Positions 32,757-46,684 of a DNA stretch of 64,000 nt are shown here, one piece after another. Both the position numbers and the translations under genes were made by a program. This stretch comes from an uncultured Candidatus Saccharibacteria bacterium (GTDB lineage: Bacteria > Patescibacteriota > Minisyncoccia > UBA6257 > 2-01-FULL-56-20). Positions within the stretch are counted from its first letter, which is position 1. Each line of letters opens with the position of its first letter. Location of the stretch: assembly GCA_964646415.1 (NCBI GenBank), contig CAZYEL010000001.1, forward strand, positions 394 to 64,393. Direction: 5' to 3'. The notes below the pieces were generated by a model. The model did no database searches and was not told the DNA's origin. It worked only from the letters and a program-made list of their open reading frames with translations.

Positions 32757-35468
32757 ATGGTTCCCAATATAAAGAAGCTCACTGCGGGGTTTCTCGTCTT
32801 TGCCGCGCTCGCGACGATGCTTTCTTTGGGATTCTCGACGCTTCTTTCATCATCCTCTTCGCAACCCACTCCCTCCGCGACCGCTTCCATAGAATCCCGC
32901 GCAGGGGAGAATGCGTTCATTCCGAAAGACCAGGCCGGAGCAACTTCCCTCGCGGATGGAACGATGCCCGTGCTGGGCGGCGCCCCCGCCGCATCCACAA
33001 ATCTTACGCTGCGCCTGGGAAGTCTTCTTGCGCAGGAGGTCATCCACACCAACGACACACTGGGGACCCTCAACGCTCCGCCCGCAGGACTTGTGGCCCC
33101 GAAAAAGAAAGAGCTCGAAACCGCGATTCAAACGAGTCTCGCAAACCTTTCCGAGGCGAGCACATTCCTCCCGCAATTCGACGAGCCCATAACAAACAAC
33201 GCCCTCACTATTCTCGCCGCGCCGCGCGCGGAGGATTTTTCGCGCTATACCGACGCCACCTCGCGTGCGCTTGAAGAAACCGTCGGGAGCGCAACTTTTG
33301 AAAAATTGCTCGCCGGGAAAGCAAGCCTTGAAACGGCGTACGCCGCAACCGCGATGTACGGCAACCTCACACAAACTCTTGCCCTGATCCCCGTTCCCCA
33401 GCCGCTCATAGGATTCCACAAGAGCGTCATTGCTGCGGTACGAAACCGTAAAACGCTCGTCGATGTGGCCTTGGGGGATTTCTCCGACCCGCTGAAATCA
33501 CTCGCCACAATCCAAAGCCTTGAAAGCCGCGTCGAAGAAATTCTCGACCGCGACGCCGAAAACATAGAACGGGAAGCGGCGCGCGTCCGCAGCATTTCAT
33601 TCGCTGCTCCCGCGGACACGCGGGACATCCTTGCAACCATTTTCGGCATTGAGCGCGCATTCGCACAGGGAGCGGAGGTCCCCGTGAAAGATAAGATGCT
33701 CACCACGACTGCGAAAAGCCTGACCGGGGAGCAAAAGAAGTCCAACGCGCAGAATTGGTTGCGGCGCCTCTGGGATTTCACCCAAAAAGTGCTTCTCCAG
33801 GAACTCAAGAACCAGATCATCGCCATGCTTGAACAGCAAATCGTGAATTGGATAAACGGCGGCGGCAAGCCCCAGTTCGTCACCGACTGGAAAGGGTTTA
33901 TCGGGGACGCCTTCAACAACGCCGCAGGCGCGGCGATTGACAAAATACTCCCCGAACTCTGCATGCCGCTGAACGCCCGGACCTATATCAACTTTACGCT
34001 CCGGCCCCCTCTCATTCCAGTCTACACCGGCTGTACGCTGAATCAGGTAATCAATAACGTGAAGAACTTTGCAAATGATTTCAGGAACGGCGGCTGGCTT
34101 CAATACAGCGTAACCATACAGCCCACCGGCAATTACTTCGGCGGCCTCATCGAAGCGCATGATGCGGGGCTCTTCGCGGGACTTGCGGGGTCCGACGCCG
34201 CAAAGAACAAGGCGCTTGCGGGAGCCGGCTTCCTGGGAAGCGAGATATGTCCCTCAACCGGCAAGCCGCCCGACGAAGAAGGTTCGCTCTACGGCTACCC
34301 CTGCCCGGGAAACGAACAACCAATCACCCGGACTCCGGGGAAAGTGCTGGGAGACACGCTCACCAAAGGACTCTCCTTGCCCTCCGAACTTATTGTGAAC
34401 GCGAACGACATCGCCGGGCTCGTCGCGGTGGTGACCGATGCCGCGCTCACGCGGCTCATGGCGGTGGGCCTTAGCGCCGCGGGGAAAGCAACCGGCAAAG
34501 GTTTGAGCGACGTCCCGCCGAGAACGGCAACAACCGCCACAAACGTAACCGCCGCGGCTGCAGCCCAAAAAGCCGCCGCAGACAACCCAATTGCCCCGCC
34601 CACGGAGAGCGACGTGCAGAACGAAGTTGCAAAGAGCGTGGAAGTTGGCGATGCTGGAAACGAAACGTTCCCTCCCGCAGAAGCATTGGCATCAAGAATT
34701 GACTTGTCGAATATTTGTCTTCTTTGCGCCACGCAAAGCTACACAGAACCCCGTAGTGACGGGAGTGGTCCCGCCAGAGCGGCGATTGACGGCTCCCTAA
34801 GCACATTCTCAAGCACCTTTGGCAGTTCTCCCGCGTCGTGGGAAGTAGCCCTCCCCATCCCTCAATACCTTGATGAAATCCAGGTCCAAACTAACGCGGG
34901 GTATCCCATGTCCAAGTCCGCAGGGAACAACGGGCCTCTGCTTGTGCTCTACGAAGCGGGAACAAGCCCCCTTCGCCGCTACACCATCACACTGCCCAAC
35001 GCGACGTACAGTCGACGGATAAACCTCACCACGGAACGGATGCGGGATGCGAACGGCAATGAAGTTGCGACCCCTCCGAACAAAATTGAGGTGGCAAAAG
35101 TACGATTTGAAGCAAGCCAACTCCTTCTTGCCGAAGTGGAACTTTTCCGCCATATGAGCCCTGAAGTGGATATCTCGAAGGTCCCGTCCACGCTTACCAA
35201 AGCGGCTGCGGCAAACCTTGACCCCTTGCAGTGGGTGAGCGCCATCGCCTACCCGGCGCACAATAGCGCTCCGCAGCCCGCGCCCTTGGCCGTCATCACG
35301 GTTACCATCACCGAGAACAAGGAGCGCGACGCGAGCAGGATGGAACCTCTTAGCCAAAGCCCGCTCCGCTATGGCCTCGCCCCGGGCTCCTATCGCTTCA
35401 TCTACACCGCCACAGTCGGGGGAGAAACAACCGCGCCGCGTACGCGCACCGTCACGGTAACCGAATGA
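32757..35468 (+). CDS. large secreted protein of unknown function; first gene of T4SS-like operon
   Basis: 903 aa with an N-terminal signal/TM helix and Thr/Ala/Pro-rich regions. Its stop overlaps the next gene start (ATGA). Confidence 0.5.
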   Translation: MVPNIKKLTAGFLVFAALATMLSLGFSTLLSSSSSQPTPSATASIESRAGENAFIPKDQAGATSLADGTMPVLGGAPAASTNLTLRLGSLLAQEVIHTNDTLGTLNAPPAGLVAPKKKELETAIQTSLANLSEASTFLPQFDEPITNNALTILAAPRAEDFSRYTDATSRALEETVGSATFEKLLAGKASLETAYAATAMYGNLTQTLALIPVPQPLIGFHKSVIAAVRNRKTLVDVALGDFSDPLKSLATIQSLESRVEEILDRDAENIEREAARVRSISFAAPADTRDILATIFGIERAFAQGAEVPVKDKMLTTTAKSLTGEQKKSNAQNWLRRLWDFTQKVLLQELKNQIIAMLEQQIVNWINGGGKPQFVTDWKGFIGDAFNNAAGAAIDKILPELCMPLNARTYINFTLRPPLIPVYTGCTLNQVINNVKNFANDFRNGGWLQYSVTIQPTGNYFGGLIEAHDAGLFAGLAGSDAAKNKALAGAGFLGSEICPSTGKPPDEEGSLYGYPCPGNEQPITRTPGKVLGDTLTKGLSLPSELIVNANDIAGLVAVVTDAALTRLMAVGLSAAGKATGKGLSDVPPRTATTATNVTAAAAAQKAAADNPIAPPTESDVQNEVAKSVEVGDAGNETFPPAEALASRIDLSNICLLCATQSYTEPRSDGSGPARAAIDGSLSTFSSTFGSSPASWEVALPIPQYLDEIQVQTNAGYPMSKSAGNNGPLLVLYEAGTSPLRRYTITLPNATYSRRINLTTERMRDANGNEVATPPNKIEVAKVRFEASQLLLAEVELFRHMSPEVDISKVPSTLTKAAAANLDPLQWVSAIAYPAHNSAPQPAPLAVITVTITENKERDASRMEPLSQSPLRYGLAPGSYRFIYTATVGGETTAPRTRTVTVTE

Positions 35469-37996
35469 TGAAAGGGATTCTCCATATGTTTCTCGAAAAG
35501 GCGCGCCGCATGCGCCGGTTTCTCTCCGCGCACCGCGTTGCCGCGGTAGCCGTTCTCTCTTTATCCGGTATTGCTCTTGCGCTTCCCCAAACCACGGAAG
35601 CGACGATATTCGGATGGATGGCGGGCGCAGTGGGAAGCGTAGTGGGAGATGTCGCCGGGTCGGCAATCGGCTGGGCCGCATTCACCCTTGGCTACATCAT
35701 TGCCATGCTTGTGGGAGCGCTCATAGGCGTTGCCGCCTATGGCATCAATGTCGTTCTCCAACTCAACACACACGTAGTGGATGCCATTGCGGTCCAGCAG
35801 GGGTTCAGGGTGACGCTCTCCCTCGCAAACCTCGGCTTCGTACTCGCGATTATCGTCATCGCCATTGCAACCATCGTCCGCTACGAATCCTACGGGATGA
35901 AGAAGGTGCTTTGGAAGCTTATTGTCGCCGCACTCCTCGTAAACTTCAGTCTCGTGATTGCCGGAAGCATCATCAATTTTTCGGACCAGCTCTCTGGTTC
36001 ATTTATCACGGCGTTCCCGGGGCAACAAACAGGCGGCACGATGCTTGATGATGCGGGCGCGAAAGTTGCCGGAATTCATAACTTCGCATCCGGCCTTGCA
36101 GGCGCCTTCAACCCTCAACGCAGCTGGACATTTGCCGCCCTGGGGAAAGCCGACTCCGGGGCGCAGGCGGCATCTGCGGGCGGGCAAGGACTCGGCAAGC
36201 TTTTTGTCCCCTTCATCCAACTCATATTTACGGCAGTCACATCGATTTTCATCCTTTTCGCGCTCCTCTCCCTCATCGTGCTCCTGATGATCCGCTACAT
36301 CTACCTCGGCATCCTCCTTATCCTCATGCCGCTCGCCTGGCTCCTCTGGATTTTCCCCCTGACCGAGAAAAACTGGAGTAAATGGTGGGGAAAATTCATA
36401 AAATGGACGTTCTTTGCCCCCATTACCCTCTTCTTCCTCTGGCTCGTCATGCTTACCTCCTCCGCGATGAGCAAGAGTGGGGGCGATGACCCTATTGGAG
36501 GCTTGAGCGGATTGGGATATGTGCCCGCAGGAGGGGAGGGCATCCTTGCGGAGATCGGGGCGCTCTTCGGCGGAGCCATCAATCAGATACTTGGCAGCTT
36601 CCTCCAGGCCACGATTCTCGTGGCGCTCACCATTGCCGGATTCTTTGCCGCGAATGCGCTGGCGCTCGAAACTTCGAAAGCCGCGCAAAAAGTGATGCAC
36701 GCAGCGAATAGCTATGTCGGGCGGCGCATGGGCCATTACGGCGGTCGCGCGATGAACCGACTCGGAGCGCAAAGACTTGCGACAGCCGCACAACGACAGG
36801 GCCTGAGCGGACTCCGTAATTTCAGCAGTAATATTGGCGGAAACAGCCACCCAATACTCCAAAAAATCCTTAAGCCCGTCAATTGGGGGGTTAATACGTT
36901 AGTAAGGGGAACAGGATACGCCGCTTCCATCGTCCCAGGGGGGAACTACCTTACACGAGCGATGGGCCGCGGGGCGCAGGCCGGGCTCACCGCAACAGGC
37001 GCTGGGATAGTGGACGAAGAGGCAAAGCACGTCAAAAAAGAAACCAAAGGGTACACCGGCGCACAGAAAGGCTCGATACTCGCGGGCATGAATCCCGATG
37101 CCCAAAAAGCCCTGCTCGAGGATATGCTGAAAAAGAAAGAGTTAAAGCACGCGCTTTGGCAGGAAAAATTATGGGCGCCCGATACTAAAGAAGAATGGGA
37201 GCGTGTCGGCAAAGGAGAGGTGTACGACAAGCTCAACGAAGCATTCCCGGGAGGGCATGAGCGGACAACGGTGGAAAGGGCGGCAAAGGTGTACGAAGAA
37301 GCCCAGAAAACCGCGAGAGCGAACGCCGAAAAGACTGTTGCGGCGACTTTCACGAAAGAGGAACTTGACAAGACGCCTGCAAAAGATAAGGAAGCGCTCA
37401 TCGCCCAAGAAACTGACGAGGAGATGAGGAAAATGCAGAACAATCCGGAGTCCCCACTCAATAAAGGCGTCGAAATGCTTGCCAAAGCCGCGGGGGACGC
37501 AACAGAGGTGCCACCCATGGAAAAACTCCTGCATATCGCGGAGGAACAGCTTCGCGTGACGAAGAAAAATGCAAAGACCGTCATCGGCTCCTTCTTCGGC
37601 GAGAAGCCCGTGCCTGGATACACTATGGCGGAAACAAAGGTGATGAGCCGCGTCTATGTAACCACGGTCGCCAACGCGAACCCCACAATGGTCCCGAACC
37701 TGATAGCAAACATGAACTTCGCGGAAACAACGCAATTCGGCGCCGAGTACGGGGGTTATCTGACGAGTGAGATAGACCGCCTCAAGAAATCGAACGCCAA
37801 CCCAGAGCGTCTTAAGAAATTCCAAAAGAGCCTCAAGGACCTTGAAAGAATCATCGCCCGGCAAGGTTTCTCCGAAGGACCGCAAGAAAAAGAGGAGGGG
37901 GAAGAAAAAGAGGAGGGGGGCGACGACCACGGCGAAGAGAGCATCCACGTCAGCCCAGCCATAGATACGAGCGGCGGCGAACGTCCTCACTCATAA
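35465..37996 (+). CDS. VirB6/TrbL-like polytopic inner-membrane protein with large hydrophilic C-terminal domain
   Basis: 843 aa. The first ~430 aa hold at least 7 hydrophobic helices with a TrbL/VirB6-like architecture. It is co-operonic with the VirB4 ATPase. Confidence 0.5.
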   Translation: MMKGILHMFLEKARRMRRFLSAHRVAAVAVLSLSGIALALPQTTEATIFGWMAGAVGSVVGDVAGSAIGWAAFTLGYIIAMLVGALIGVAAYGINVVLQLNTHVVDAIAVQQGFRVTLSLANLGFVLAIIVIAIATIVRYESYGMKKVLWKLIVAALLVNFSLVIAGSIINFSDQLSGSFITAFPGQQTGGTMLDDAGAKVAGIHNFASGLAGAFNPQRSWTFAALGKADSGAQAASAGGQGLGKLFVPFIQLIFTAVTSIFILFALLSLIVLLMIRYIYLGILLILMPLAWLLWIFPLTEKNWSKWWGKFIKWTFFAPITLFFLWLVMLTSSAMSKSGGDDPIGGLSGLGYVPAGGEGILAEIGALFGGAINQILGSFLQATILVALTIAGFFAANALALETSKAAQKVMHAANSYVGRRMGHYGGRAMNRLGAQRLATAAQRQGLSGLRNFSSNIGGNSHPILQKILKPVNWGVNTLVRGTGYAASIVPGGNYLTRAMGRGAQAGLTATGAGIVDEEAKHVKKETKGYTGAQKGSILAGMNPDAQKALLEDMLKKKELKHALWQEKLWAPDTKEEWERVGKGEVYDKLNEAFPGGHERTTVERAAKVYEEAQKTARANAEKTVAATFTKEELDKTPAKDKEALIAQETDEEMRKMQNNPESPLNKGVEMLAKAAGDATEVPPMEKLLHIAEEQLRVTKKNAKTVIGSFFGEKPVPGYTMAETKVMSRVYVTTVANANPTMVPNLIANMNFAETTQFGAEYGGYLTSEIDRLKKSNANPERLKKFQKSLKDLERIIARQGFSEGPQEKEEGEEKEEGGDDHGEESIHVSPAIDTSGGERPHS

Positions 37997-38002
37997 TCAT
38001 TC

Positions 38003-39397
38003 ATGAATCTCAAGCCCACCACAATTCAAAGAAAGCAGCTCGCGCAGCGCTGGGACATGCTCCCCATAAACCTCCGTGAGGCAATGACCGACGAGCGCAA
38101 TTCCGAAATCCTCTGGAAAGTATGCACCGACGAGCACCTCTCCGAGGAGAAAACGCGCGAAGTCGCCCGCATCGCCGCATGGGTAATGATGGGCTTCCTC
38201 CACCCTGCGGATGTCGCAAATGAAGTAAAGCTCTCCATCGGCATCCACCCCGAGCTTGCGGCGACGATTGCGAACACGCTGAACGCAAAACTCTTCGCGC
38301 CGATGCGGGAAGAGCTTGAGGGAACCTATGCTCCTCCGGGAACCGAGCCGCATTACCAGGAGCCCGCCGCAGCCGCCACGTTTGAAGACATCAGGCCCCC
38401 AGAAGCATTGGAACAAACGCTCGCGAACATCAGCAAGGGCGCTCCTGCCGAACCGTTCTTTAAAGAAACGCCCGTGTCTCTCGACTCTCTGAACGCCGGA
38501 CCTTCGGGCTCCCAAGACCAGGCCTTGTACACGCCGCCCGCGTCTCCATTTGACCTCTCCTCGTTCTCCCCCGAACCCCCTCCGGCGCCCCCCGCTCCCT
38601 CGCAAAGCTCAAACTTCTCCACTAAAGGTGGATCCGCCTCTGGCGGAGAAGCGCAAAGTTCTCCTTTCATCCTCCACGAGGAGCCCGCCGCGCCTTCGCT
38701 CCCGAACGCCGGGGATTTCTCTCTCGACATCACACCCGAAGAGTTCGGCCCCTCGCAACCGGAATTCGAGAATATCCCTCAAGCGAACATCGAAATCGGC
38801 GGTGGGGCTACCGCCCCCGCCGAAACGCGCGGACGGGACGCGGAACAACGCGGAACCGGAACACAGGAGCCTCGCACCGTCCACTACGGGGATTTGCGCA
38901 CACCGCTTTCCGCATCCACCAAGGTTGAACCTTTAGGGGATTCTCAAGGTTCAACCTTAGAAACTCTGTCCTCACCGCCAAAGGCGAGTTCTCCGGGCGA
39001 CGTATTGCGCTTCTCCGATTTTGGCAAAGAACCAGAGGTCCCGCCCGCGCCTCCCGCAAACGCACCCGAAGCGGATTTGCCTCCGCCGCCACGCAAAACT
39101 CCCTATCTCGCCAAGGAACAGAAAAAGCCGGGGTTCTTCGCGCGCTTTTTTGGGAAAAAGGAGACGAGCGCATCGCCCGCGCCCGAAGAGATATCTCTGC
39201 CGTTGCCTCCACCCCCTCCACCTTCGGCCCGCTTCACCAAAGCTTCAGCGGGGCGAGTCGCCAAAGGGACCTTCCCTACCGCCAAGCCTTTGCCTGTGAT
39301 ACCTCCATTTCCTGACATACCCCCCTCTCCGCCGCCTCAACCCTCCGCAACAAAGCCAAAGGACAATGATGTGATTGATTTAAGCTCTTTGAAGTAA
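38003..39397 (+). CDS. proline-rich acidic protein of unknown function (T4SS-like operon)
   Basis: 464 aa with a structured N-terminal ~120 aa followed by PPAPPAP/PPPPPP low-complexity sequence. Confidence 0.45.
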   Translation: MNLKPTTIQRKQLAQRWDMLPINLREAMTDERNSEILWKVCTDEHLSEEKTREVARIAAWVMMGFLHPADVANEVKLSIGIHPELAATIANTLNAKLFAPMREELEGTYAPPGTEPHYQEPAAAATFEDIRPPEALEQTLANISKGAPAEPFFKETPVSLDSLNAGPSGSQDQALYTPPASPFDLSSFSPEPPPAPPAPSQSSNFSTKGGSASGGEAQSSPFILHEEPAAPSLPNAGDFSLDITPEEFGPSQPEFENIPQANIEIGGGATAPAETRGRDAEQRGTGTQEPRTVHYGDLRTPLSASTKVEPLGDSQGSTLETLSSPPKASSPGDVLRFSDFGKEPEVPPAPPANAPEADLPPPPRKTPYLAKEQKKPGFFARFFGKKETSASPAPEEISLPLPPPPPPSARFTKASAGRVAKGTFPTAKPLPVIPPFPDIPPSPPPQPSATKPKDNDVIDLSSLK

Positions 39398-40030: not shown

Positions 40031-40380
40031 GGAAAACGTACGACCTCGAAGAGCGGGCGCTTCTGTTCACCAAACGAACAGCCCGATATGTAAATAAACT
40101 TCCGAAGACCATACCGAACGTAGAAAGCGGCAAGCAGCCTATGAGAGCTAGCGGTTCCGTCGGGGCAAACTACATTGAAGCGAATGAGTGTTTGGGCAAG
40201 AAAGACTTTGCAATGAAGATCAAAACATCAAAAAAGGAGGCGAAGGAAGCTAGATACTGGCTCGCAATCACCGAACCTGCGCCCGAGGAAGAAAAAGAGA
40301 AAGAGGCGCTTTCTCAAGAAGCTACAGAACTCATGAAGATCTTCGGGTCAATTCTCGAAAAGACGAAATGGGCGGTATAA
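40006..40380 (+). CDS. four-helix-bundle protein (23S rRNA intervening-sequence protein / TIGR02436 / Avd-like family)
   Basis: 124 aa. 'YDLEERALLFTKRTARYVNKLP...ASGSVGANYIEANE...SKKEAKEARYWL' matches the family signature. Confidence 0.6.
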   Translation: MSQIPNSKGKTYDLEERALLFTKRTARYVNKLPKTIPNVESGKQPMRASGSVGANYIEANECLGKKDFAMKIKTSKKEAKEARYWLAITEPAPEEEKEKEALSQEATELMKIFGSILEKTKWAV

Positions 40381-40455: not shown

Positions 40456-41127
40456 ATGCCCAAAGAATTCGCCAACGCACAAGACCTCGTCGCGGTAAAA
40501 GAAATCCGGGAGGGGACGCTGCTCCTCAAAGACGGCAGTTTCCGGCAGGTACTTATGGTAAACGGCGTCAATTTCGCGCTGCGCTCGGAAGTGGAACAGA
40601 ACACCATCACCGCTTCCTACCAGAATTTTTTGAACACGCTCGATTTCCCGCTCCAGATTATCATCCATTCCCGCAAAATAAACATTGATAAATACCTTGA
40701 AAAACTCGCCGCGTGCGAGCAAGCGGAATCCACGCCAATCCTCCGCAGCCAGAATGCGGAATACCGGGAGTTTATCAGGGGGTTCGTGGAAAAAAACGCC
40801 ATTATGGAAAAAATATTTTTTGCGGTTGTCCCTTGGGTAACCGTATCTCTTCCCACCACGAAAAGCCTTATGCGGTTCATTCCGTTCCTGGGGCGGAGCA
40901 AAACCGCCGATGATGCCGAGGCAAAAGAGAAAGAAGAGTCATTTGAGGAATCCCTGGAGCAGCTCAAGCAGCGCGTTTCCCAAGTCGTTGAAGGGCTCGC
41001 CTCCGTCGGCCTTGAAGCAGTTCCCCTCGGCAACCGGGAGCTCGCCGAGATGCTCTATAACTTTTACAATCCCGAGTCCGTCGAGCGGGAAAATATCAAT
41101 TTGCCCGCCGAAGGCGCAAAGAACTAG
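40456..41127 (+). CDS. VirB4/TrbE-family N-terminal domain (separate ORF ending at in-frame TAG)
   Basis: 'LLKDGSFRQVLMVNGVNFALRSEVEQNTITASYQNFLNTLDFPLQIIIHSRK' aligns with the VirB4 N-terminus 'LLEDGSIMSIARIDGVAFELEE...RAFNTLFRNI...'. It is in the same frame as the 41140 ORF. Confidence 0.55.
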   Translation: MPKEFANAQDLVAVKEIREGTLLLKDGSFRQVLMVNGVNFALRSEVEQNTITASYQNFLNTLDFPLQIIIHSRKINIDKYLEKLAACEQAESTPILRSQNAEYREFIRGFVEKNAIMEKIFFAVVPWVTVSLPTTKSLMRFIPFLGRSKTADDAEAKEKEESFEESLEQLKQRVSQVVEGLASVGLEAVPLGNRELAEMLYNFYNPESVERENINLPAEGAKN

Positions 41128-41139
41128 AAATATATTTCT

Positions 41140-42873
41140 ATGTCAGACCCCGGAATTCCCGACATCTCAAAAATCATAGCCCCCGCAGGCGCGGAAGTGA
41201 CTCCAAACTATCTGAAGTTGGGCAACAAGCTCGCGAAAACATTCTTTGTGCTTTCCTACCCGCGCTATCTCACAACCGGATGGTTTGAGCCAATCGTAAA
41301 CTTGCCCAGCCTTCTCGATGTTTCCATTTTCATCAACCCCATGGACACGGGGGATGCCCTGAAAAATCTCCGGAAAAAGGCGGCGCAGCTTGAATCGCAA
41401 ATCTCGGACACGGAGGAAAAGGGGCTCGTCCGCGACCCGCTCCTTGAAACCGCCCTGCGCGATGTGGAATCCCTACGCGACACGCTCCAACAATCGGAAG
41501 AGAAACTCTTCAACGTCGCGCTCTATATCGCAATTTACGCCGATACCCCCGATGAACTCGCCCGGCTCGAGGGGCAAATCATTTCGCTCATGGAAGCAAA
41601 GCTGGTTTATATCAAGCCTGCGCTCTTTGAACAACTTGAAGCGTTGCTCTCCGTGTTCCCCTTCGGGAACGACCGCATCCGCATCGGCACCTCGATGAAC
41701 TCGAGTCCCATTTCCTCATTCTTCCCGTTTGTGTCCGAAGACCTCACCTCAAACGAAGGAATTATGTACGGCATCAACCGCCACAACAACAGTCTTGTCG
41801 TCTTCGACAGGTTTTCGCTTGAGAACGCAAATCAGGTAGTATTCGCCAAATCGGGTTCCGGAAAATCATACTCCACGAAACTCGAAATCATCAGGTCGCT
41901 CATGGTGGGCACCGAAATCATCGTGATTGACCCGGAGAATGAATACCAGCGGCTCGCCGAAGCTTTGGGCGGAAGCTTCTTCAATATTTCGCTTTCATCC
42001 GAGGAGCACATCAACCCCTTCGACATCCCCATCATCCCGGATGGAGAATCGCCTTCGGACATTCTCCGGTCGCACATCGTGAACCTCGCAAGTCTGGTGA
42101 AACTCATGCTCGGGAAAATCACGCCCGAGGAAGATTCGCTCCTCGACCGCGCGATTACCGAAACCTACGCCTCGCGCGAGATTGTGGCGGGAGAAGATTT
42201 CTCCGGCAAAGAAGCCCCGCTTCTTGAGGACCTTGAAACCGTGCTCCGGAACCTTGAGGGCGGCCGCGCGATGGCGGAGCGCCTTTATAAATACACGAAG
42301 GGTTCCTTCGCGGGATTCGTGGACCAACACACCAACATCGACATCAACAACCGCTTCATTGTCTTTTCCATCCGCGACCTCGAAGAAGAGCTTCGCCCCA
42401 TCGCGATGTTCGTCATTCTAAACTTCATCTGGAATCTTATCCGCGCACGCCTCAAGCGCCGCGTTCTCATCATTGATGAGGCGTGGATTATGATGAAAAA
42501 CGAGGATTCCGCCACCTTCCTCTTCGGACTTGTGAAACGCGCCAGAAAATATTATCTCGGCGTCTCCACCATCACGCAGGACGTCGAGGACTTCCTCCGC
42601 TCCCCGTACGGCAGGCCCATTATTACCAACTCTTCGCTTCAGTTGCTCCTTAAACAAGCACCCGCTACGATTGACGTCGTTGCAAAAGCGTTTGACCTCA
42701 CTGAAGCGGAGAAAGGGCTCCTCCTCGGCGCCGAAGTGGGCATGGGGCTTTTCTTCGCCGGGAAAAAGCATGTGGCAATCCAGATTGTCGCATCCTATTT
42801 CGAAGACCAGATCGTTACCACCAATCCTCAAGCGCTTCTCAACGAGAAAAGCGAGAAAGAAGGAGCGAAATAA
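41140..42873 (+). CDS. virB4: VirB4/TrbE/CagE-family T4SS ATPase (C-terminal ATPase portion)
   Basis: Walker A 'VFAKSGSGKSYSTKLEI', Walker B 'RRVLIIDEAWIMM' and the motif 'GVSTITQD'. Confidence 0.85.
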   Translation: MSDPGIPDISKIIAPAGAEVTPNYLKLGNKLAKTFFVLSYPRYLTTGWFEPIVNLPSLLDVSIFINPMDTGDALKNLRKKAAQLESQISDTEEKGLVRDPLLETALRDVESLRDTLQQSEEKLFNVALYIAIYADTPDELARLEGQIISLMEAKLVYIKPALFEQLEALLSVFPFGNDRIRIGTSMNSSPISSFFPFVSEDLTSNEGIMYGINRHNNSLVVFDRFSLENANQVVFAKSGSGKSYSTKLEIIRSLMVGTEIIVIDPENEYQRLAEALGGSFFNISLSSEEHINPFDIPIIPDGESPSDILRSHIVNLASLVKLMLGKITPEEDSLLDRAITETYASREIVAGEDFSGKEAPLLEDLETVLRNLEGGRAMAERLYKYTKGSFAGFVDQHTNIDINNRFIVFSIRDLEEELRPIAMFVILNFIWNLIRARLKRRVLIIDEAWIMMKNEDSATFLFGLVKRARKYYLGVSTITQDVEDFLRSPYGRPIITNSSLQLLLKQAPATIDVVAKAFDLTEAEKGLLLGAEVGMGLFFAGKKHVAIQIVASYFEDQIVTTNPQALLNEKSEKEGAK

Positions 42874-43650
42874 ATGGATGAAGAAGAGGGAAAACACAGC
42901 AAGATAGATTATTTCGGTCCGGGGATTGTTATGGCGTTTATCGCTGCGTTCGCGGGAGACCTTTTCTGGCTTCTGGTAATCGGGGCGTTCATCCCCCCGC
43001 CGCCTATAGGGCTCACGTTTCTTGCAGCAGGACTCCTCGCCCACTACCTCGCAGGGATGATGGTGGGCGGGTTCATTTTCTTTGAGTTGAAGCATTTCGT
43101 GCCTAAGGCTATTTTAGGAGCCGCGATACTTTTACCATTGCCGTTGCTTATGGTGGGTATGGGCATTGCGCTTATTGCCCAAAACCGGATTATAGAGATC
43201 CTGCTCATCCAAGCAGGGACGAAGCTGCTTGAGGCGGGTCTTGCCGCAACGGGTGTGGGGGCACTCGCGGCGGGAGCGGTTGAAGTGGCGGCGGACGCGA
43301 AAACCGTGCAGACTGTCGCCAGAGGCGCCAAAGCAGCCACCACAGTAGGGAAGGGTGGTCGTGCTGCAGAAACAACGGCGCAACGGGCAAAGCGCATCGC
43401 AAACCGCCTACAGCGGTACGCACCACAAGGTGGAGGAGGGGAGGAGGGATATGAAGACGAAGAGGAGGATGAGGGAGATGTGCCGGAAGAAGCATTTGGG
43501 GTGCAGAGAGGGCCCGTCGAAGAGCTCCAACAATCAACCATGGAAGAACTCCCACAAGTCGAAGAGGAACCAAAAGAAAGCGACGAGTCGGGAGAGGAAG
43601 AAAAAAAGCCCCCGCGGCTTGAGGACATACGCAAACCGGATAGTTTATAA
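42874..43650 (+). CDS. polytopic membrane protein with acidic C-terminal tail (T4SS-like operon)
   Basis: 258 aa with 4 predicted TM helices followed by an E/D-rich tail. Its start overlaps the virB4 stop (TAAATG). Confidence 0.45.
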   Translation: MDEEEGKHSKIDYFGPGIVMAFIAAFAGDLFWLLVIGAFIPPPPIGLTFLAAGLLAHYLAGMMVGGFIFFELKHFVPKAILGAAILLPLPLLMVGMGIALIAQNRIIEILLIQAGTKLLEAGLAATGVGALAAGAVEVAADAKTVQTVARGAKAATTVGKGGRAAETTAQRAKRIANRLQRYAPQGGGGEEGYEDEEEDEGDVPEEAFGVQRGPVEELQQSTMEELPQVEEEPKESDESGEEEKKPPRLEDIRKPDSL

Positions 43651-43657
43651 TTACTTT

Positions 43658-44377
43658 ATGGCGCGAATTTCTAAAAAAGCAGTGCGTGGGGCACTCGCCG
43701 TCGTAATACTCGGGGTGGGATACGGGTGGGCACTGTTGCTCGCACATGCCGCCACGCCGCCGCAGATAGTCATAAGCTGGCGCGCAGATACCTACACTCC
43801 TCCGGGCTATGCGGGTAAGGCGCTCCCCACCTCAAACTCCGTAATCGCGGCGTCTTTGGATATCCTTGCAAACAACAAGGGCACCGACCTTTCGGGGCAG
43901 CTTATCTATTGGTACGTAAACAACCGCCTTGCGGGAAGCGGGAAGGGGAGAACTTCAATAACATTCCGCGCACCTTCTGCCGCGCCGGACACTCTTGCGC
44001 TCCGCGTAGAAGTGCCTGGATACCCTGGTGGCGCCATAATCAAATCAATCAATATCCCCGTGGTGGTCCCCGAATCGGTGATTGTCGCTCCGCTCCCGCT
44101 CTTGCGCTTCACCCCGCCCTCCACAACGCTCACGGGGGCTCCTTACTTTTTTAATGTGCGCGACCCCCTCCTCCTCAAATTCGAGTGGGGAGCGAACTAC
44201 ACAGCCCTGCCTGCCGGACAAACCGATAACGCGCCGAAAGGCGACCCGCGCGTGCTCACACTCAACCTCAATCCCGACGCGCCCAAAGGCGCGCCGGTGC
44301 GCGTAACGCTCGGCATTACCAACCCATTAAGAGAGGCCGAGGGGGCACAATCATTTATTACGCTCACAACCCAATGA
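43658..44377 (+). CDS. secreted protein of unknown function (T4SS-like operon)
   Basis: 239 aa with a signal peptide 'AVRGALAVVILGVGYGWALLLAHAA'. Its stop overlaps the next start (ATGA). Confidence 0.45.
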   Translation: MARISKKAVRGALAVVILGVGYGWALLLAHAATPPQIVISWRADTYTPPGYAGKALPTSNSVIAASLDILANNKGTDLSGQLIYWYVNNRLAGSGKGRTSITFRAPSAAPDTLALRVEVPGYPGGAIIKSINIPVVVPESVIVAPLPLLRFTPPSTTLTGAPYFFNVRDPLLLKFEWGANYTALPAGQTDNAPKGDPRVLTLNLNPDAPKGAPVRVTLGITNPLREAEGAQSFITLTTQ

Positions 44378-45441
44378 TGCGGCGCATGCTCAATGCCATC
44401 TCGGCCATTCTGGGCTTCTGCCTCACGAGCGGAGTTGTCTTCGCAGTCACCATAAACACCAATCTCCCCGGCACCAATCCCACCGTAAACAACCCGGGCG
44501 GCTGGGTTGCCAACTTCTACCAATTCGCCCTTCTCCTCGGAGGACTCCTCGCCTTCGGCGCGATTGTCTACGGAGGAATGACGTATACGCTCTCGGCGGG
44601 GAATCCCGAAAAGCAGAGTGATGCGAAAAGCAGGATTACGCAGGCGCTCCTCGGGCTCACGCTCCTCCTCGGCGCCTACATCGTATTGAATTTCTTGAAT
44701 CCCAAACTCACCAATCTCCAGATTGACACGTACGGGCTCACGGCGGCCTGCCAGGGGACTTCGTGTGAAAACCCAGTTCCCCTCGACAAAGACGCTATGC
44801 AAAAAGCGCTGGATGCGGGCCTTGATACATACCTTGCGGAACGCGCCGAACAAGTCCGGGGAAAGGCCGCGGATCTCGACGCAGATGCAGATGAGTTAGA
44901 GGCAGAGGCGGACTTCGCCGCGACCTCGGTAGAAAGCGATGTCCTCATTGAAATGGCGAACGAACGGCGAGCACGGGCGGAACTCATGCGCCGGGAAGAA
45001 AGCGTCAGCGAATATTTTTACAAGACCACGGCAGCGGAGCAGACCAACAATGTAGAGGAAATAAAAAGACTCACAGGAGTGATGAACGCCTCTCTCGACT
45101 CAGGCATACAAGAGTTGAAAAGACTAGGGGACAATGCGGGAGCAGAGACGCTCGCGATCAAAAAATTCACCCACAACGTTTACTTTGACGCCCAGAAAGC
45201 TGCTGCCACAGTGCAGGCAGCCTTCCCAAATAAAGCCGGCCCTTTTGATACTATTGATACTGCAAAAGCTCGGGAGGCAGCGACTAATGCCGTAAAAGAC
45301 ATCGGGAAAAGAGTGCGAGAAGAGGCCAAAAGACTTGGGAATAACGTCCAAGACCCGAGTGTCAGCGAAGTATTTCGGTGGGGCGCGGCGGCAACTGAAA
45401 AGATACGGGACGCATGCGCCGCTAAAAATATTAAGTGCTGA
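44374..45441 (+). CDS. pilin-like (VirB2/TrbC-like N-terminus) protein with long coiled-coil C-terminal domain
   Basis: A signal peptide followed by two hydrophobic helices ('FYQFALLLGGLLAFGAIVYGG', 'ALLGLTLLLGAYIVLNFL'), as in T4SS pilins. The C-terminal 240 aa are a charged coiled-coil. Confidence 0.35.
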   Translation: MMRRMLNAISAILGFCLTSGVVFAVTINTNLPGTNPTVNNPGGWVANFYQFALLLGGLLAFGAIVYGGMTYTLSAGNPEKQSDAKSRITQALLGLTLLLGAYIVLNFLNPKLTNLQIDTYGLTAACQGTSCENPVPLDKDAMQKALDAGLDTYLAERAEQVRGKAADLDADADELEAEADFAATSVESDVLIEMANERRARAELMRREESVSEYFYKTTAAEQTNNVEEIKRLTGVMNASLDSGIQELKRLGDNAGAETLAIKKFTHNVYFDAQKAAATVQAAFPNKAGPFDTIDTAKAREAATNAVKDIGKRVREEAKRLGNNVQDPSVSEVFRWGAAATEKIRDACAAKNIKC

Positions 45442-45454
45442 AGCTGCTACTACG

Positions 45455-46684
45455 ATGAAACGTTTTCTCTACCTCTTCATTATCCTCGCGGCCATCGGCC
45501 TCGTGGTCGCCGCCGGGTTTTTTCTGCAGTACCGCAGCGAGCCCGCCCCGCAGCAACCGGAGGCGCAGCCCGCGGGGGATACTCTCCCCATAGCGCCCTC
45601 CCCATCATTTGAAGCTCCGCCCGCCGCACAAGACGAGCCCGCCGCCACAAACCTTCCCGAACCCGTCTTTCTTGGCAATGGCCTGCGCGTCCTCTCGCCG
45701 CGCCCAACATACGCCTTCGCAGTCCGCACGGACGGCAGCTTGCTCCTCGCGAGCCCCGACGGCACCATTTCCGAGTTGCGGGGCGCCACGCTCAATACGC
45801 TGAGCCCCACCGTCATCGCGGATATCCAAACAATCTCCTTCTCATTCGATGCATCCAAAATCCTCGCCGTCTTCGGCGACCGGAGCGAGCCCCAAGTCGC
45901 TCTCTTTGATGTGAAGTCAAAAACATGGCAACCGTTTCCCGCCGCCGCAACAAGCGCCGCGTGGTCCCCGAACGACCTCCGCGTGGCATATCTTTCGCAA
46001 AAAAGCGGGGCGGTGTCGCTCAACACTTTGAACATCGCCGACGCCAAAGCGAAGCCCCAGGAGCTCACTCGCGTTCGCTTCGCCGACGTGACCCTCGCGT
46101 GGAACAACCCTGACCAGATTCTCCTTCAGGAACGCGCAAGCGGCTTGGTGCCGACCTCGGCGTGGAACTGGGATACTAAGAAGAAAGCTCTCGTTTTGTT
46201 TGCCGAGGACCAGCGCGGTTTCGAAACCCGATGGGCTCCGGGCGCGGCGAATGGCCTTGCGTTCGTCGCGGGGGAGAGAGGCTATGGAGGCTCCTTCCTC
46301 CTCGTTTCACCCCAAGGGGACGTGCGCGAAACTTTCTCTTTCCTCACTTTCCCAGAAAAATGCGCGTTTGGCAGTATGCCGATACCCGCAGAATTGCGCT
46401 CCTCAAGCACCCCTTCGGGCGCAACGATTATAAATTCATTACGCTGCGCAGTCCCCCGAGACAGCACCGCGCTTGCGTCGGTAATTCTTCCTGATACCTA
46501 CCGCAAACGCGCCATATTTACCGTCGACGACTTCTATGAAATCGACCTTGCGACCGGCGCCACCCGCACCATACTTGCGGACCCCGGGCAAACCCTCGAC
46601 GCAATGAAGGTTGCCGCATCCGGCGACATGCTCTACTTCGTAAACCGCTACGACCAAAAGCTTTACTCGCTCCAAATAAAATAA
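45455..46684 (+). CDS. secreted beta-rich protein of unknown function (last gene of T4SS-like operon)
   Basis: 410 aa with a signal peptide/TM 'FLYLFIILAAIGLVVAAGFF', a Pro-rich linker and a repetitive beta-strand-like C-terminus. Confidence 0.4.
   Translation: MKRFLYLFIILAAIGLVVAAGFFLQYRSEPAPQQPEAQPAGDTLPIAPSPSFEAPPAAQDEPAATNLPEPVFLGNGLRVLSPRPTYAFAVRTDGSLLLASPDGTISELRGATLNTLSPTVIADIQTISFSFDASKILAVFGDRSEPQVALFDVKSKTWQPFPAAATSAAWSPNDLRVAYLSQKSGAVSLNTLNIADAKAKPQELTRVRFADVTLAWNNPDQILLQERASGLVPTSAWNWDTKKKALVLFAEDQRGFETRWAPGAANGLAFVAGERGYGGSFLLVSPQGDVRETFSFLTFPEKCAFGSMPIPAELRSSSTPSGATIINSLRCAVPRDSTALASVILPDTYRKRAIFTVDDFYEIDLATGATRTILADPGQTLDAMKVAASGDMLYFVNRYDQKLYSLQIK

What the first reader, a model, noticed from the sequence alone, without database searches (positions are those of the whole stretch)
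32757..46684. 14-kb translationally coupled VirB4/VirB6-type (minimal T4SS-like) operon dominated by unknown secreted proteins
Ten co-directional ORFs show start/stop overlaps (ATGA at 35465 and 44374, TAAATG at 42874), which implies one tightly coupled transcription unit. Recognisable type IV secretion parts are present: VirB4/TrbE ATPase (Walker A AKSGSGKSYS, Walker B LIIDEAW, plus its N-terminal domain), an 843-aa VirB6/TrbL-like polytopic protein, a VirB3/PrgI-like 2-TM protein and a VirB2-like pilin-like N-terminus on a 355-aa coiled-coil protein. No VirD4 coupling protein, VirB11, relaxase or oriT is present, and there is no VirB7/9/10 outer-membrane core. The partners are instead a 903-aa secreted protein, a 464-aa polyproline protein, a 258-aa acidic-tail membrane protein and two further secreted proteins. 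None of these shows detectable similarity to characterised families. This does not look like a conjugation system. It looks like a stripped-down VirB4-powered envelope machine with lineage-specific secreted components, for example for host or episymbiont contact or DNA uptake in an ultra-small bacterium. The function and most components are uncharacterised.
Basis: partly seen in the sequence, partly recalled or inferred. Interest (0 to 1): 0.75.

Follow-up and report, generated by a model that had tools for sequence, protein, structure and literature searches.

The report
Patescibacteria type IV secretion gene cluster

Summary
Eleven co-directional ORFs lie at 32757-46684, with ATGA overlaps at 35465 and 44374 and a TAAATG junction at 42871-42876. 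They include a VirB4 ATPase, a separate VirB4-N-domain (TrsD-like) protein, PrgI/VirB3, a VirB6 orthologue and a VirB2-like pilin-domain protein. No relaxase, coupling protein, integrase or border repeats were found across about 71 kb of the contig.

The window is from a Candidatus Liptonbacteria MAG (Paceibacteria). The full gene order, ksgA-[cluster]-jag-yidC-rnpA-dnaA, recurs in dozens of Paceibacteria species. VirB4 is better conserved than DnaA in 41 of 42 loci. This is the Patescibacteria-clade T4SS already described (PMC12102498, PMC10633639, PMC12857230).

Its claim that the partners resemble nothing known is partly wrong:
- The 409-aa protein is a TolB-like beta-propeller.
- The 239-aa protein is a membrane-anchored tandem Ig-like protein.
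- The 903-aa protein ends in a discoidin-type lectin domain plus an Ig-like domain.
- The 124-aa ORF is a sporadic 23S-rRNA-IVP insertion.

One addition: the 903-aa protein carries an unnamed core domain found in 2,582 clusters, always just upstream of VirB6. A VirB5/TrbJ-like motif precedes that domain, but homology was tested and not established.

Most likely role: a host-contact pilus and translocon machine. The function is inferred, not shown.

The parts
32757..35468 (+). g1, 903 aa. Candidate surface adhesin, in this order: an N-terminal TM anchor (aa 12-30); a helical insert of about 270 aa specific to this subclade; an 'AxA + VPVxD' motif (aa ~301-312); a universal unnamed core domain (aa ~340-585: WIxGGGxPxFVTxW ... 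CTL ... FYxDFxxGGW ... NNxYG ... TPG ... NRL); a discoidin/F5-8-C lectin-like domain (aa ~650-800); and a terminal Ig-like domain.
   Evidence: ORF; TM segment. The AF2 model is poor overall (pLDDT 56), but the C-terminal region 690-903 scores 75-92. Foldseek matches F5/8-C and CBM32 lectin domains with probability 1.0. Orthologues replace the C-terminus with PKD or Big_7 domains. The core domain is conserved in 29 of 29 orthologues and has no Pfam or PDB hit. It matches 2,582 clusters in 1.84 billion representatives. Orthologues were found just upstream of VirB6 in 35 of the 80 loci by tblastn; many loci are cut short upstream.
35465..37996 (+). g2, 843 aa. 'Extended' VirB6/TrbL-type polytopic membrane protein, with about 7 hydrophobic helices in aa 20-390 and a charged hydrophilic C-terminal half of about 450 aa.
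   Evidence: TM segments. The window protein has no direct Pfam hit, but 9 of its 48 positional orthologues hit Pfam TrbL/VirB6, best E 6.8e-10. The C-terminal half gives only coiled-coil-type PDB matches.
38003..39397 (+). g3, 464 aa. Conserved cluster protein with no TM segment or signal peptide. It has a conserved N-terminal domain of about 110 aa, then a proline-rich, probably disordered region. Role unknown; a cytoplasmic partner or a substrate are both possible.
   Evidence: tblastn orthologues in 27 of 80 loci at the same position. No Pfam or PDB match for the profile.
39447..39959 (+). g4, 170 aa. PrgI/VirB3-type protein with two TM segments.
   Evidence: Pfam PrgI, E 2.8e-8, above the curated cut-off. 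Two TM segments. Present in 73 of 80 loci.
40006..40380 (+). g5, 124 aa. 23S rRNA-intervening-sequence-protein family (four-helix bundle). A sporadic insertion and probably not part of the machine.
   Evidence: Pfam PF05635, E 3.1e-11. Found in only 6 of 80 loci, in differing slots.
40456..41127 (+). g6, 223 aa (ORF open from 40414). TrsD-like free-standing VirB4 N-terminal domain.
   Evidence: Pfam TraC_F_IV positions 15-174, E 2e-4, and a weak CagE_TrbE_VirB hit. Precomputed PF26593 TraC-like and PF27097 VirB4_TrbE_N. Adjacent to VirB4 in 78 of 80 loci, and fused to VirB4 in 4 loci. Relative reading frames are 28/28/20, so the in-frame TAG in this window is a coincidence.
41140..42873 (+). 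g7, 577 aa. VirB4 ATPase (C-terminal motor domain with Walker A and B).
   Evidence: Pfam P-loop_TraG, E 1.7e-27, and AAA_10. The best solved relative is the Thermoanaerobacter VirB4 4AG5, E 3e-44, against E 1e-4 for R388 TrwK. At least 591 relatives in Patescibacteria genomes at 55-88% identity.
42874..43650 (+). g8, 258 aa. Small membrane protein with a core of about 110 aa and 3 TM segments. The alanine-rich then acidic C-terminal tail occurs only in this subclade.
   Evidence: TM segments. A gene of this kind sits between VirB4 and g9 in 41 of 44 loci. Iterated local jackhmmer links nearly all of them. Alignment A8 shows a K-G ... LP ... NHPK motif. No Pfam family.
43658..44377 (+). g9, 239 aa. 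Bitopic membrane protein: an N-terminal TM helix followed by two Ig/FN3-like beta-sandwich domains outside the cell.
44374..45441 (+). g10, 355 aa. VirB2-like T4SS pilin domain (signal peptide plus two TM helices, aa ~9-108) with a helical C-terminal extension of about 245 aa.
   Evidence: Pfam T4SS_pilin, E 2.1e-8. TM segments. Orthologues range from 99 to 523 aa. All ten long ones tested keep the pilin domain, and one (L043) carries Peptidase_M23 instead of the helical tail.
45455..46684 (+). g11, 409 aa. N-terminal TM anchor followed by a TolB-like (PD40) beta-propeller.
   Evidence: A profile of 36 orthologues hits TolB structures at E 4.9e-12 and WD40/DPP4 propellers more weakly. TM segment. 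Syntenic in 40 of 80 loci.
27504..28544 (-). LysM + Peptidase_M23 cell-wall hydrolase, 4 kb upstream. It is a conserved neighbour and a possible VirB1-type wall-opening partner. Its membership of the system is uncertain.
   Evidence: Precomputed Pfam LysM and Peptidase_M23. A homologue lies on the opposite strand upstream of ksgA/uvrD in at least 12 related loci. PMC12102498 reports VirB1-like proteins with M23 and LysM domains in Patescibacteria.

Best explanation
This is the vertically inherited, chromosomal 'Patescibacteria-clade' type IV secretion system, which derives from the monoderm MPF-FATA lineage. The copy here is from a Candidatus Liptonbacteria (class Paceibacteria) genome.

Shown:
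- A membrane translocon set is present: a VirB6-type channel protein (g2), PrgI/VirB3 (g4), and a VirB4 motor split into a TrsD-like N-domain protein (g6) and the ATPase (g7).
- It is encoded together with a VirB2-like pilin-domain protein (g10).
- Five class-specific proteins accompany it. Four are envelope proteins: g1 (lectin-tipped adhesin candidate), g8 (small 3-TM protein), g9 (TM + 2 Ig-like domains) and g11 (TM + TolB-like propeller). The fifth, g3, has no TM segment or signal peptide and may be cytoplasmic.
- The cluster has a fixed position next to oriC.
- No relaxase, coupling protein or mobile-element borders are present.

Inferred:
- VirB4 powers assembly of a short pilus or stalk built from g10 through the g2/g4 platform and the cell wall.
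- g9 and g11 scaffold this structure.
- g1, whose C-terminal binding domains are swapped between species, sits at the surface or tip and binds the host cell.
- The machine then passes proteins or other molecules between the epibiont and its host rather than conjugating DNA.

By analogy with the Southlakia Tn-seq result, it is probably required for growth on the host.
For: - Family assignments.
- The window is 100% identical to GCA_016190325.1, a Ca. Liptonbacteria MAG.
- The gene order uvrD-ksgA-g1-g2-g3-g4-g6-g7-g8-g9-g10-g11-jag-yidC-rnpA-dnaA-dnaN recurs across Liptonbacteria, Harrisonbacteria, Wolfebacteria, Jorgensenbacteria, Azambacteria and other Paceibacteria.
- Median VirB4 identity is 64%, against 57% for DnaA and 38% for DnaN. 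VirB4 exceeds DnaA in 41 of 42 loci. This indicates housekeeping-level constraint and vertical descent.
- The predicted surface parts diverge fast: g1 27%, g11 28%, g9 32%, and g8 is undetectable by BLAST. That pattern is typical of host-interaction surfaces.
- Genes called across window 2-64 kb plus 9 kb beyond are housekeeping. None is a relaxase, T4CP or integrase.
- There is no flanking tRNA and there are no long direct repeats.
- Published description of the same system and context: PMC12102498.
- The T4SS and its pilin genes are essential for epibiotic growth of Southlakia (PMC10633639). A comEC deletion is viable, which separates this role from ComEC-dependent DNA uptake (PMC12857230).
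Against: - No experiment exists for any Paceibacteria T4SS. Function is extrapolated from a different class (Saccharimonadia), whose accessory genes differ.
- The pilin-domain protein carries a 245-aa extension, and in one relative a peptidase. It may therefore be a membrane anchor rather than a polymerising pilin.
- No substrate or effector is identified.
- Only about 71 kb of the 84.6-kb contig was inspected, not the whole genome. A distant VirD4-like gene cannot be excluded, and the paper reports such genes are common in Patescibacteria genomes.
- The single-transcript claim is untested.
Confidence: 0.72

Rival explanations
1. Pilus-only adhesion organelle. The VirB4 machine merely assembles a VirB2-like filament carrying the g1 lectin adhesin for attachment to the host, and translocates no cargo.
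For: A pilin domain and a lectin/PKD-tipped protein are both present. No coupling protein or recognisable substrate was found. In diderm systems VirB4 is the pilus-biogenesis ATPase (PMC4027160).
Against: These genomes already encode type IV pili for adhesion: a PilB-like ATPase lies at 55529-57208, and T4P mediates adhesion in Saccharibacteria (PMC12857230). An extended VirB6 channel protein and very strong conservation of VirB4 suggest more than an adhesin. The pilin-domain proteins have bulky, variable C-termini.
Confidence: 0.13
2. DNA or nucleotide import machine, analogous to Helicobacter ComB or the archaeal Ced system. It would take up host DNA for an organism that cannot make nucleotides.
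For: A T4SS without T4CP or relaxase is the ComB-like pattern. Patescibacteria lack nucleotide synthesis. In class ABY1, T4SS loci co-localise with comF, recG and radA (PMC12102498).
Against: In Southlakia, comEC deletion abolishes competence yet is viable, while the T4SS is essential (PMC12857230). No competence or recombination genes adjoin this Paceibacteria cluster. No ComB- or Ced-specific components were detected.
Confidence: 0.1
3. Part of a conventional conjugative or integrative element, with its relaxase, coupling protein and integrase lying elsewhere.
For: VirB4, VirB6, VirB3 and VirB2 are the mating-pair-formation core. The closest solved VirB4 is from a Firmicute. The literature notes a few Patescibacteria relaxases.
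Against: The chromosomal slot between ksgA and jag-yidC-rnpA-dnaA is identical in dozens of species. VirB4 is more conserved than DnaA. No integrase, tRNA target or border repeats were found. GC content is no different from the flanks. Relaxases occur in only 103 of 3,035 genomes.
Confidence: 0.03
4. A decaying remnant: the split VirB4 with an in-frame stop, together with the inserted IVP gene, indicates a pseudogenised cluster.
For: g6 and g7 are in the same frame, separated by TAG plus 12 nt. A foreign 124-aa gene sits inside the cluster.
Against: The TrsD/VirB4 split is ancestral: the genes are separate in 72 of 76 loci, with reading frames distributed 28/28/20. All 11 ORFs are intact. Purifying selection on VirB4 is strong.
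Confidence: 0.02

Closest known systems
Patescibacteria-clade T4SS (Quinonero-Coronel et al. 2025, Microb Genom, PMC12102498; Paceibacteria layout)
   Same: A VirB4 whose listed relatives are all Patescibacteria or unclassified MAGs, an adjacent TrsD-like protein, PrgI/VirB3, VirB6 and a VirB2-like pilin. No relaxase or T4CP nearby. Located beside dnaA, dnaN, rnpA, rpmH and ksgA.
   Different: Nothing essential differs. That paper left the grey 'no homology' genes undescribed. Here they are resolved as a lectin-tipped protein with an unnamed core domain, a 3-TM protein, a tandem Ig-like protein and a TolB-like propeller. A conserved proline-rich protein with no TM segment (g3) stays without a fold or family. 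That paper also reported no adhesins.
Southlakia epibionticum T4SS (SEML1_0006-0019; Wang et al. 2023, Cell, PMC10633639)
   Same: A monoderm-type T4SS with pilin genes, lacking coupling protein and relaxase. It is essential for epibiotic growth.
   Different: It belongs to a different class (Saccharimonadia). It has an array of 6 divergent pilins and peptidase/lysozyme genes downstream of virB4. The Liptonbacteria cluster has one pilin-domain gene with a long tail and different accessory proteins. No genetics exist for this lineage.
Gram-positive conjugative T4SS (MPF-FATA: pCF10 Prg/Pcf, pGO1 Trs, ICEBs1 Con)
   Same: VirB4, PrgI/VirB3, PrgH/VirB6 and TrsD-type components. No VirB7/9/10 outer-membrane core. 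The nearest solved VirB4 is a Firmicute protein (4AG5).
   Different: This cluster has no relaxase, no VirD4/T4CP, no VirB8-like (NTF2) protein and no in-cluster VirB1 hydrolase. It does have a VirB2-like pilin domain, which Gram-positive systems lack. It is a fixed chromosomal core locus, not a mobile element.
VirB5/TrbJ minor pilin / tip adhesin of diderm T4SS (compared with g1 only)
   Same: The gene lies immediately upstream of VirB6, as with virB5-virB6 and trbJ-(trbK)-trbL. An 'AxA + (I/V)PVxD + helix' motif resembles the mature TrbJ N-terminus (AQA|GIPVIDG). A few orthologues give weak hits to TrbJ and DUF4141 models.
   Different: Profile-profile and HMM tests do not support homology beyond about 35-50 residues (hhalign probability 3%). 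g1 is 2-4 times larger, is membrane-anchored in this subclade, and carries lectin, PKD or Ig domains.

Membership tests
Patescibacteria-clade T4SS (MPF-FATA-derived) | VirB4 ATPase with Walker A/B and a VirB4-type P-loop domain | tested here: met
   Pfam P-loop_TraG E 1.7e-27 and AAA_10 E 2.1e-11. PDB VirB4 4AG5, E 3e-44. The motifs are visible in the translation.
Patescibacteria-clade T4SS (MPF-FATA-derived) | VirB4 falls in the monophyletic Patescibacteria clade nested in MPF-FATA | tested here: inconclusive
   No tree was built. As a proxy, the 80 best of at least 591 relatives are all Patescibacteria or unclassified MAGs at 55-88% identity. The Firmicute VirB4 is far closer than proteobacterial TrwK.
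Patescibacteria-clade T4SS (MPF-FATA-derived) | TrsD-like (VirB4 N-domain) protein encoded next to virB4 | tested here: met
   Pfam TraC_F_IV N-terminal part; PF26593 and PF27097. Adjacent in 78 of 80 loci and fused in 4.
Patescibacteria-clade T4SS (MPF-FATA-derived) | VirB3/PrgI and VirB6 membrane components near virB4 | tested here: met
   PrgI, E 2.8e-8. VirB6 is assigned only through orthologues: 9 of 48 hit TrbL, best E 6.8e-10. The window protein itself gives no hit.
Patescibacteria-clade T4SS (MPF-FATA-derived) | VirB2-like pilin gene near virB4 | tested here: met
   PF18895 T4SS_pilin, E 2.1e-8. Whether it polymerises is unknown, because the C-terminal extensions are long and variable.
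Patescibacteria-clade T4SS (MPF-FATA-derived) | No relaxase or T4CP in the neighbourhood; chromosomal position near dnaA, dnaN, rnpA and ksgA | tested here: met
   Gene content across window 2-64 kb plus 9 kb beyond. Synteny. The GC-skew minimum lies at dnaA.
Patescibacteria-clade T4SS (MPF-FATA-derived) | Required for epibiotic growth | not testable with these tools
   Known only for Southlakia (PMC10633639).
Conjugative T4SS / ICE | Relaxase plus type IV coupling protein (VirD4/TcpA) | tested here: not met
   None among the genes called over about 71 kb of the contig. The rest of the genome was not searched.
Conjugative T4SS / ICE | Mobile-element borders (integrase, att repeats, tRNA target) and patchy distribution | tested here: not met
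   No integrase. No flanking direct repeats. The nearest tRNA is 14 kb away. The locus sits in the same slot in dozens of species.
Conjugative T4SS / ICE | VirB8-like (NTF2-fold) bitopic protein | tested here: not met
   The only bitopic candidates are g9, which is all-beta tandem Ig-like (AF2 pLDDT 93), and g11, which is a propeller.
VirB5/TrbJ minor pilin (g1) | Sequence-profile similarity over the helical VirB5 domain | tested here: not met
   hhalign of 186 family members against 9 TrbJ sequences aligns 34 columns at probability 3.3%. A TrbJ HMM gives best E 0.0018 among the 186. TraC and TrbJ as single sequences give probability below 1%. The PDB profile search finds no VirB5. The only positives are weak, short hits: TrbJ at 3.2e-5 in 2 members, DUF4141 at 1.9e-7, and L003 aa 297-350 matching TrbJ positions 19-69.
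VirB5/TrbJ minor pilin (g1) | Gene immediately upstream of virB6, and a secreted protein with an (I/V)PVxD N-terminal motif | tested here: met
   g1 overlaps g2 by ATGA, and this order is conserved. The motif is seen in the orthologues and in R751 TrbJ.
TolB/PD40 beta-propeller (g11) | Profile match to the TolB propeller repeats | tested here: met
   E 4.9e-12 to TolB structures, with two stretches covering profile positions 119-286. The TolB N-terminal domain and Pal/Tol partners were not examined, so this is a fold-level assignment and not a Tol-Pal membership.
ComB / Ced DNA-import systems | ComB VirB7-10-like or CedA/CedA1/CedB components, and linkage to competence genes | tested here: not met
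   No such Pfam hits in the cluster. The neighbours are replication and housekeeping genes.

The most novel reading that the evidence does not exclude
The Paceibacteria version of the Patescibacteria T4SS may be a distinct, fixed 10-gene architecture. Its class-specific proteins (g1, g3, g8, g9, g11) would form a new wall-spanning stalk or tip. Its first gene would encode the functional counterpart of VirB5: a tip adhesin built on an unnamed core domain of about 250 aa, found in 2,582 protein clusters. The interchangeable lectin, PKD or Ig C-termini of that adhesin would set host specificity. This would be the first adhesin or host-range determinant identified for a Patescibacteria T4SS. PMC12102498 reported that none was detected.
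Probability: 0.3. Interest if true: 0.55.

Novelty: already known. Interest (0 to 1): 0.3.

Why it matters
Patescibacteria make up a large share of bacterial diversity, and how they exploit their hosts is largely unknown. Their T4SS is one of the few machines shown to be essential for epibiotic growth, in Saccharibacteria. [quoted passage not shown]

This locus does not change that picture. It is a textbook example of the Paceibacteria layout.

What this work adds is at the level of components:
- Every 'hypothetical' partner is a conserved member of the cluster across the class.
- Three of them have recognisable folds: a TolB-like propeller, a tandem Ig-like protein and a lectin-tipped protein.
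- The motor is more conserved than DnaA, while the surface parts evolve fast.
- The gene upstream of VirB6 defines a very large unnamed domain family. It is the best adhesin or host-specificity candidate, and a concrete target for structure prediction and for genetics once a Paceibacterium is tractable.

Tried and rejected
1. **In-frame TAG between g6 and g7 as a pseudogene or recoding site.** Rejected. The two genes are separate in 72 of 76 relatives, in all three relative reading frames.

2. **g9 as the missing VirB8.** Rejected. A confident AF2 model shows two Ig-like beta-sandwiches and no NTF2 fold.

3. **g1 as a VirB5/TrbJ homologue.** Weak TrbJ and DUF4141 hits in a few orthologues prompted tests with real TraC (R46) and nine TrbJ sequences fetched from plasmids. 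Only a motif of about 34 residues aligns, at hhalign probability 3%. Homology is not established, and this is kept only as a lead.

4. **Structure of g1.** Both homologue searches returned only 11-13 sequences, and the AF2 model was poor (pLDDT 56). Only the C-terminal lectin and Ig domains can be interpreted.

5. **Profile searches against PDB and Pfam that returned nothing useful.** These covered the g2 membrane half, the g3 profile, the g1 core domain and g8.

6. **ICE borders.** Repeat, tRNA and Rfam scans found none.

7. **Technical failures.** Fold search against afdb50 was unavailable. RK2 (BN000925) and R388 (BR000038) were not in the plasmid collection.

8. **Promoter and terminator scans.** They were no better than shuffled sequence, so they neither prove nor disprove a single operon.

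Full report
**1. Observation.**
The region 32757-46684 holds eleven co-directional ORFs on the + strand.
ATGA overlaps occur at 35465-35468 and 44374-44377. A stop/start abutment (TAAATG) lies at 42871-42876. The other gaps are 6-75 nt.
- Small corrections follow. A 124-aa gene at 40006-40380 was not counted. The 239-aa gene starts at 43658. The last gene starts at ATG 45455 and is 409 aa. The 237-aa ORF most likely starts at ATG 40456 (223 aa), as in the public gene call.
- No terminator-like site on the + strand falls in an intergenic gap. The consensus scans are no better than shuffled sequence. One transcription unit is therefore plausible but unproven.

**2. What the recognisable parts are.**
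- Pfam confirms PrgI/VirB3 on the 170-aa protein (E 2.8e-8).
- It confirms a VirB4-type P-loop on the 577-aa protein (P-loop_TraG 1.7e-27, AAA_10 2.1e-11).
- It confirms a T4SS_pilin domain at residues 42-108 of the 355-aa protein (2.1e-8).
- It matches the N-terminal part of the TraC/VirB4 N-domain on the 223/237-aa protein (precomputed PF26593 and PF27097).
- The nearest solved VirB4 is the Firmicute protein 4AG5 (E 3e-44). This is far closer than R388 TrwK (1e-4).
- The 843-aa polytopic protein has no direct Pfam hit. However, 9 of its 48 positional orthologues hit TrbL/VirB6, best E 6.8e-10. It has about 7 hydrophobic helices and a hydrophilic C-terminal half of about 450 aa. This is the 'extended VirB6' type described in PMC12857230.

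**3. Source and context.**
- The window is 100% identical to contig JACPQV010000019.1 of GCA_016190325.1, a Candidatus Liptonbacteria MAG.
- Upstream lie a LysM-M23 peptidase, uvrD, an unknown gene and ksgA. Downstream lie jag, yidC, rnpA and rpmH on the opposite strand, then dnaA, dnaN and a class A PBP.
- The cumulative GC skew reaches its minimum at 48-50 kb, which places oriC at dnaA.
- Genes called across window 2-64 kb, and for 9 kb beyond its right end, are housekeeping. None is a relaxase, VirD4-type coupling protein, VirB11 or integrase.
- No tRNA is adjacent. No direct repeats bracket the cluster. GC content does not differ from the flanks.

**4. Related loci.**
- A scan of one genome per species found at least 591 VirB4 relatives. 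The best 80 share 55-88% identity and all come from Patescibacteria or unclassified MAGs. These include Liptonbacteria, Harrisonbacteria, Wolfebacteria, Jorgensenbacteria, Kaiserbacteria, Azambacteria and Nomurabacteria.
- tblastn of all window proteins against these loci shows the same order wherever the contig is long enough: uvrD-ksgA-g1-g2-g3-PrgI-TrsD-VirB4-(g8)-g9-pilin-g11-jag-yidC-rnpA-dnaA-dnaN.
- All the 'unknown' proteins are therefore conserved members of the cluster and not strain-specific cargo.
- VirB4 is the best-conserved gene of the neighbourhood. Its median identity is 64%, against 57% for DnaA, 45% for YidC and 38% for DnaN. It exceeds DnaA in 41 of 42 loci.
- The predicted surface proteins are the least conserved: g1 27%, g11 28% and g9 32%, while g8 is not detectable by BLAST.
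- This pattern fits a vertically inherited, strongly constrained motor with fast-evolving exposed parts.

**5. The split VirB4.**
g6 and g7 lie in the same frame, separated by TAG and 12 nt. That could suggest a pseudogene or read-through. In 76 related loci the two genes lie in all three relative reading frames (28/28/20), and they are fused in only four. The split is therefore ancestral, and the shared frame here is a coincidence. This is the TrsD + VirB4 arrangement reported for Patescibacteria.

**6. The partners.**
- *g11.* A profile of 36 orthologues matches TolB beta-propellers at E 4.9e-12. It is a membrane-anchored PD40-type propeller.
- *g8.* A gene sits at this position in 41 of 44 loci, and iterated local jackhmmer links nearly all of them to g8. 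The family has a membrane core of about 110 aa and 2-3 TM segments. Only the window's subclade has the alanine-rich, acidic tail. No Pfam family matches.
- *g3.* It has no TM segment. It has a conserved N-terminal domain of about 110 aa and a proline-rich tail. Nothing matches in Pfam or PDB.
- *g5.* This is a 23S-rRNA-IVP family gene present in only 6 of 80 loci, in varying slots. It is an insertion.

**7. g1 in detail.**
- Only 13 homologues were retrievable for modelling, and the AF2 model is poor (pLDDT 56). Its C-terminal third is still confident.
- That third matches F5/8-C, discoidin and CBM32 lectin domains with probability 1.0, followed by an Ig-like domain. Orthologues carry PKD or Big_7 domains there instead.
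- The part shared by all 29 orthologues is a central domain of about 250 aa with conserved cysteines and the motifs WIxGGGxPxFVTxW, CTL, FYxDFxxGGW, NNxYG, TPG and NRL. It has no Pfam or PDB match.
- A full-library phmmer search finds 2,582 clusters at E <= 1e-3 and 1,152 at E <= 1e-10. This is a very large unnamed family.
- Just before the core lies an 'AxA + VPVxD + helix' motif. It resembles the mature N-terminus of TrbJ (AQA|GIPVIDG).
- A few orthologues give weak hits to TrbJ (3.2e-5) and to DUF4141 (1.9e-7). In L003, residues 297-350 align to TrbJ positions 19-69. From my own recollection, which I did not check, DUF4141 corresponds to CTnDOT TraI. PMC4027160 reports TraI of CTnDOT as VirB5-like.
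- The gene sits directly upstream of VirB6, as virB5 and trbJ do.
- I tested the VirB5 idea with real TraC (R46) and nine TrbJ sequences. The hhalign probability is 3.3% over 34 columns. A TrbJ HMM scores at best E 0.0018 among 186 family members. Single-sequence comparisons give below 1%. A PDB profile search finds no VirB5.
- Homology is therefore not established. The adhesin or VirB5-analogue role rests on position, motif and domain architecture only.

**8. The pilin-domain protein.**
Orthologues range from 99 to 523 aa. All ten long ones tested keep the T4SS_pilin domain. One (L043) carries a Peptidase_M23 domain in place of the helical tail (E 2e-33). The domain could therefore be a true pilin that is processed, as IncP TrbC is (established knowledge). 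It could equally be a membrane anchor for variable modules. A separate LysM-M23 gene is a conserved upstream neighbour in at least 12 loci. PMC12102498 lists M23/LysM-containing VirB1-like proteins.

**9. Comparison with what is known.**
- PMC12102498 surveyed 3,035 Patescibacteria genomes. It found VirB4 in 2,417 of them, mostly in one clade nested in MPF-FATA. Accompanying genes were TrsD, VirB3/PrgI, VirB6 and VirB2-like pilins, with almost no relaxases. In Paceibacteria the cluster lies next to dnaA, dnaN, rnpA, rpmH and ksgA.
- PMC10633639 showed that the Southlakia T4SS and its pilins are essential for epibiotic growth, and that the system lacks coupling protein and relaxase.
- PMC12857230 notes that comEC deletion is viable, which separates the essential role from ComEC-dependent DNA uptake. 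It also speculates that the T4SS and pilus form a conduit between epibiont and host.
- The present locus meets every tested feature of this system. Only the formal phylogeny and the essentiality test were not done. It fails the defining features of a conjugative element.

**10. Mechanism.**
- *Shown.* The component set, its conservation, its fixed position beside oriC, and the absence of DNA-processing genes nearby.
- *Inferred.* The VirB4/TrsD motor, docked on PrgI and VirB6, drives assembly of a g10-based stalk or pilus through the wall. g9 and g11 scaffold this structure. g1 binds the host surface through exchangeable lectin, PKD or Ig domains. The machine then moves proteins or other molecules between epibiont and host.
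- *Rivals.* A pilus-only adhesin organelle (0.13), DNA import (0.10), a conjugative element (0.03) and a decaying remnant (0.02).

**11. Verdict.**
The system is already known, so interest is low to moderate (0.3). The part worth following up is the g1 core-domain family as a candidate adhesin or host-range determinant. The probability of that reading is about 0.3, and its interest if true about 0.55.

Noticed in passing
window 40006-40380 (+): A 124-aa 23S-rRNA-intervening-sequence-protein (PF05635, four-helix bundle) gene sits between PrgI and TrsD. Relatives have it in only 6 of 80 loci and in different slots, so it behaves like a small mobile insertion inside an otherwise fixed cluster.
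   Followed up: partly
window 27504-28544 (-); L043:12131-12940: A LysM + Peptidase_M23 hydrolase lies 4 kb upstream and is a conserved neighbour in at least 12 related loci. In locus L043 the T4SS_pilin-domain protein is itself fused to a Peptidase_M23 domain (E 2e-33). This hints at a VirB1-like wall-opening function tied to the pilin module.
   Followed up: partly
L022, L042, L043, L046 (VirB4 loci): In four species TrsD and VirB4 are a single 768-800-aa ORF, whereas they are separate genes in 72 others. This is direct evidence that TrsD is the detached VirB4 N-domain. L042, L043 and L046 also lack detectable g1, g9 and g11 (L022 is too short to judge).
   Followed up: partly
window 32757-50151: The cumulative GC skew is lowest at 48-50 kb, which places oriC at dnaA. 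The 14-kb T4SS operon lies on the lagging strand, head-on to replication, and converges on jag-yidC-rnpA. This orientation is kept in the related loci. The published gene-dosage idea does not mention it.
   Followed up: no
window 31846-31868 and 39412-39434: A 23-nt inverted match (21 of 23) links the ksgA coding sequence to the g3-g4 intergenic spacer. None of 100 shuffles gives two matches. Its meaning is unknown.
   Followed up: partly
window 7146-7389 (+): An Rfam group I intron match (61 bits, E 4.7e-13) lies in the GC-poor 6-8 kb stretch. ARAGORN found no tRNA at this position. Its host gene was not identified.
   Followed up: no
window ~24681-25136 (+), within the 24-26 kb low-GC stretch: A 151-aa ORF with a weak LAGLIDADG homing-endonuclease hit sits in the lowest-GC part of the window (45% against about 55%). 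This may be another small mobile element.
   Followed up: no
window 55529-57208 (+): A PilB-like type IV pilus/T2SS assembly ATPase (MshEN + T2SSE) lies 9 kb from the T4SS. The genome therefore also encodes the T4P machinery implicated in adhesion and competence in Saccharibacteria.
   Followed up: no
window 33642-34511 (g1 aa 296-585): This domain of about 250 aa has no Pfam model yet matches 2,582 protein clusters (1,152 at E <= 1e-10) in a 1.84-billion-protein library. It occurs either right after a signal peptide or behind an N-terminal insert of about 300 aa.
   Followed up: yes
L085:20367-21207 (contig beyond the right end of the window): A Polbeta (MNT-like) / HepT-like nucleotidyltransferase toxin-antitoxin pair lies about 8 kb past the window end. 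It is unrelated to the T4SS.
   Followed up: no
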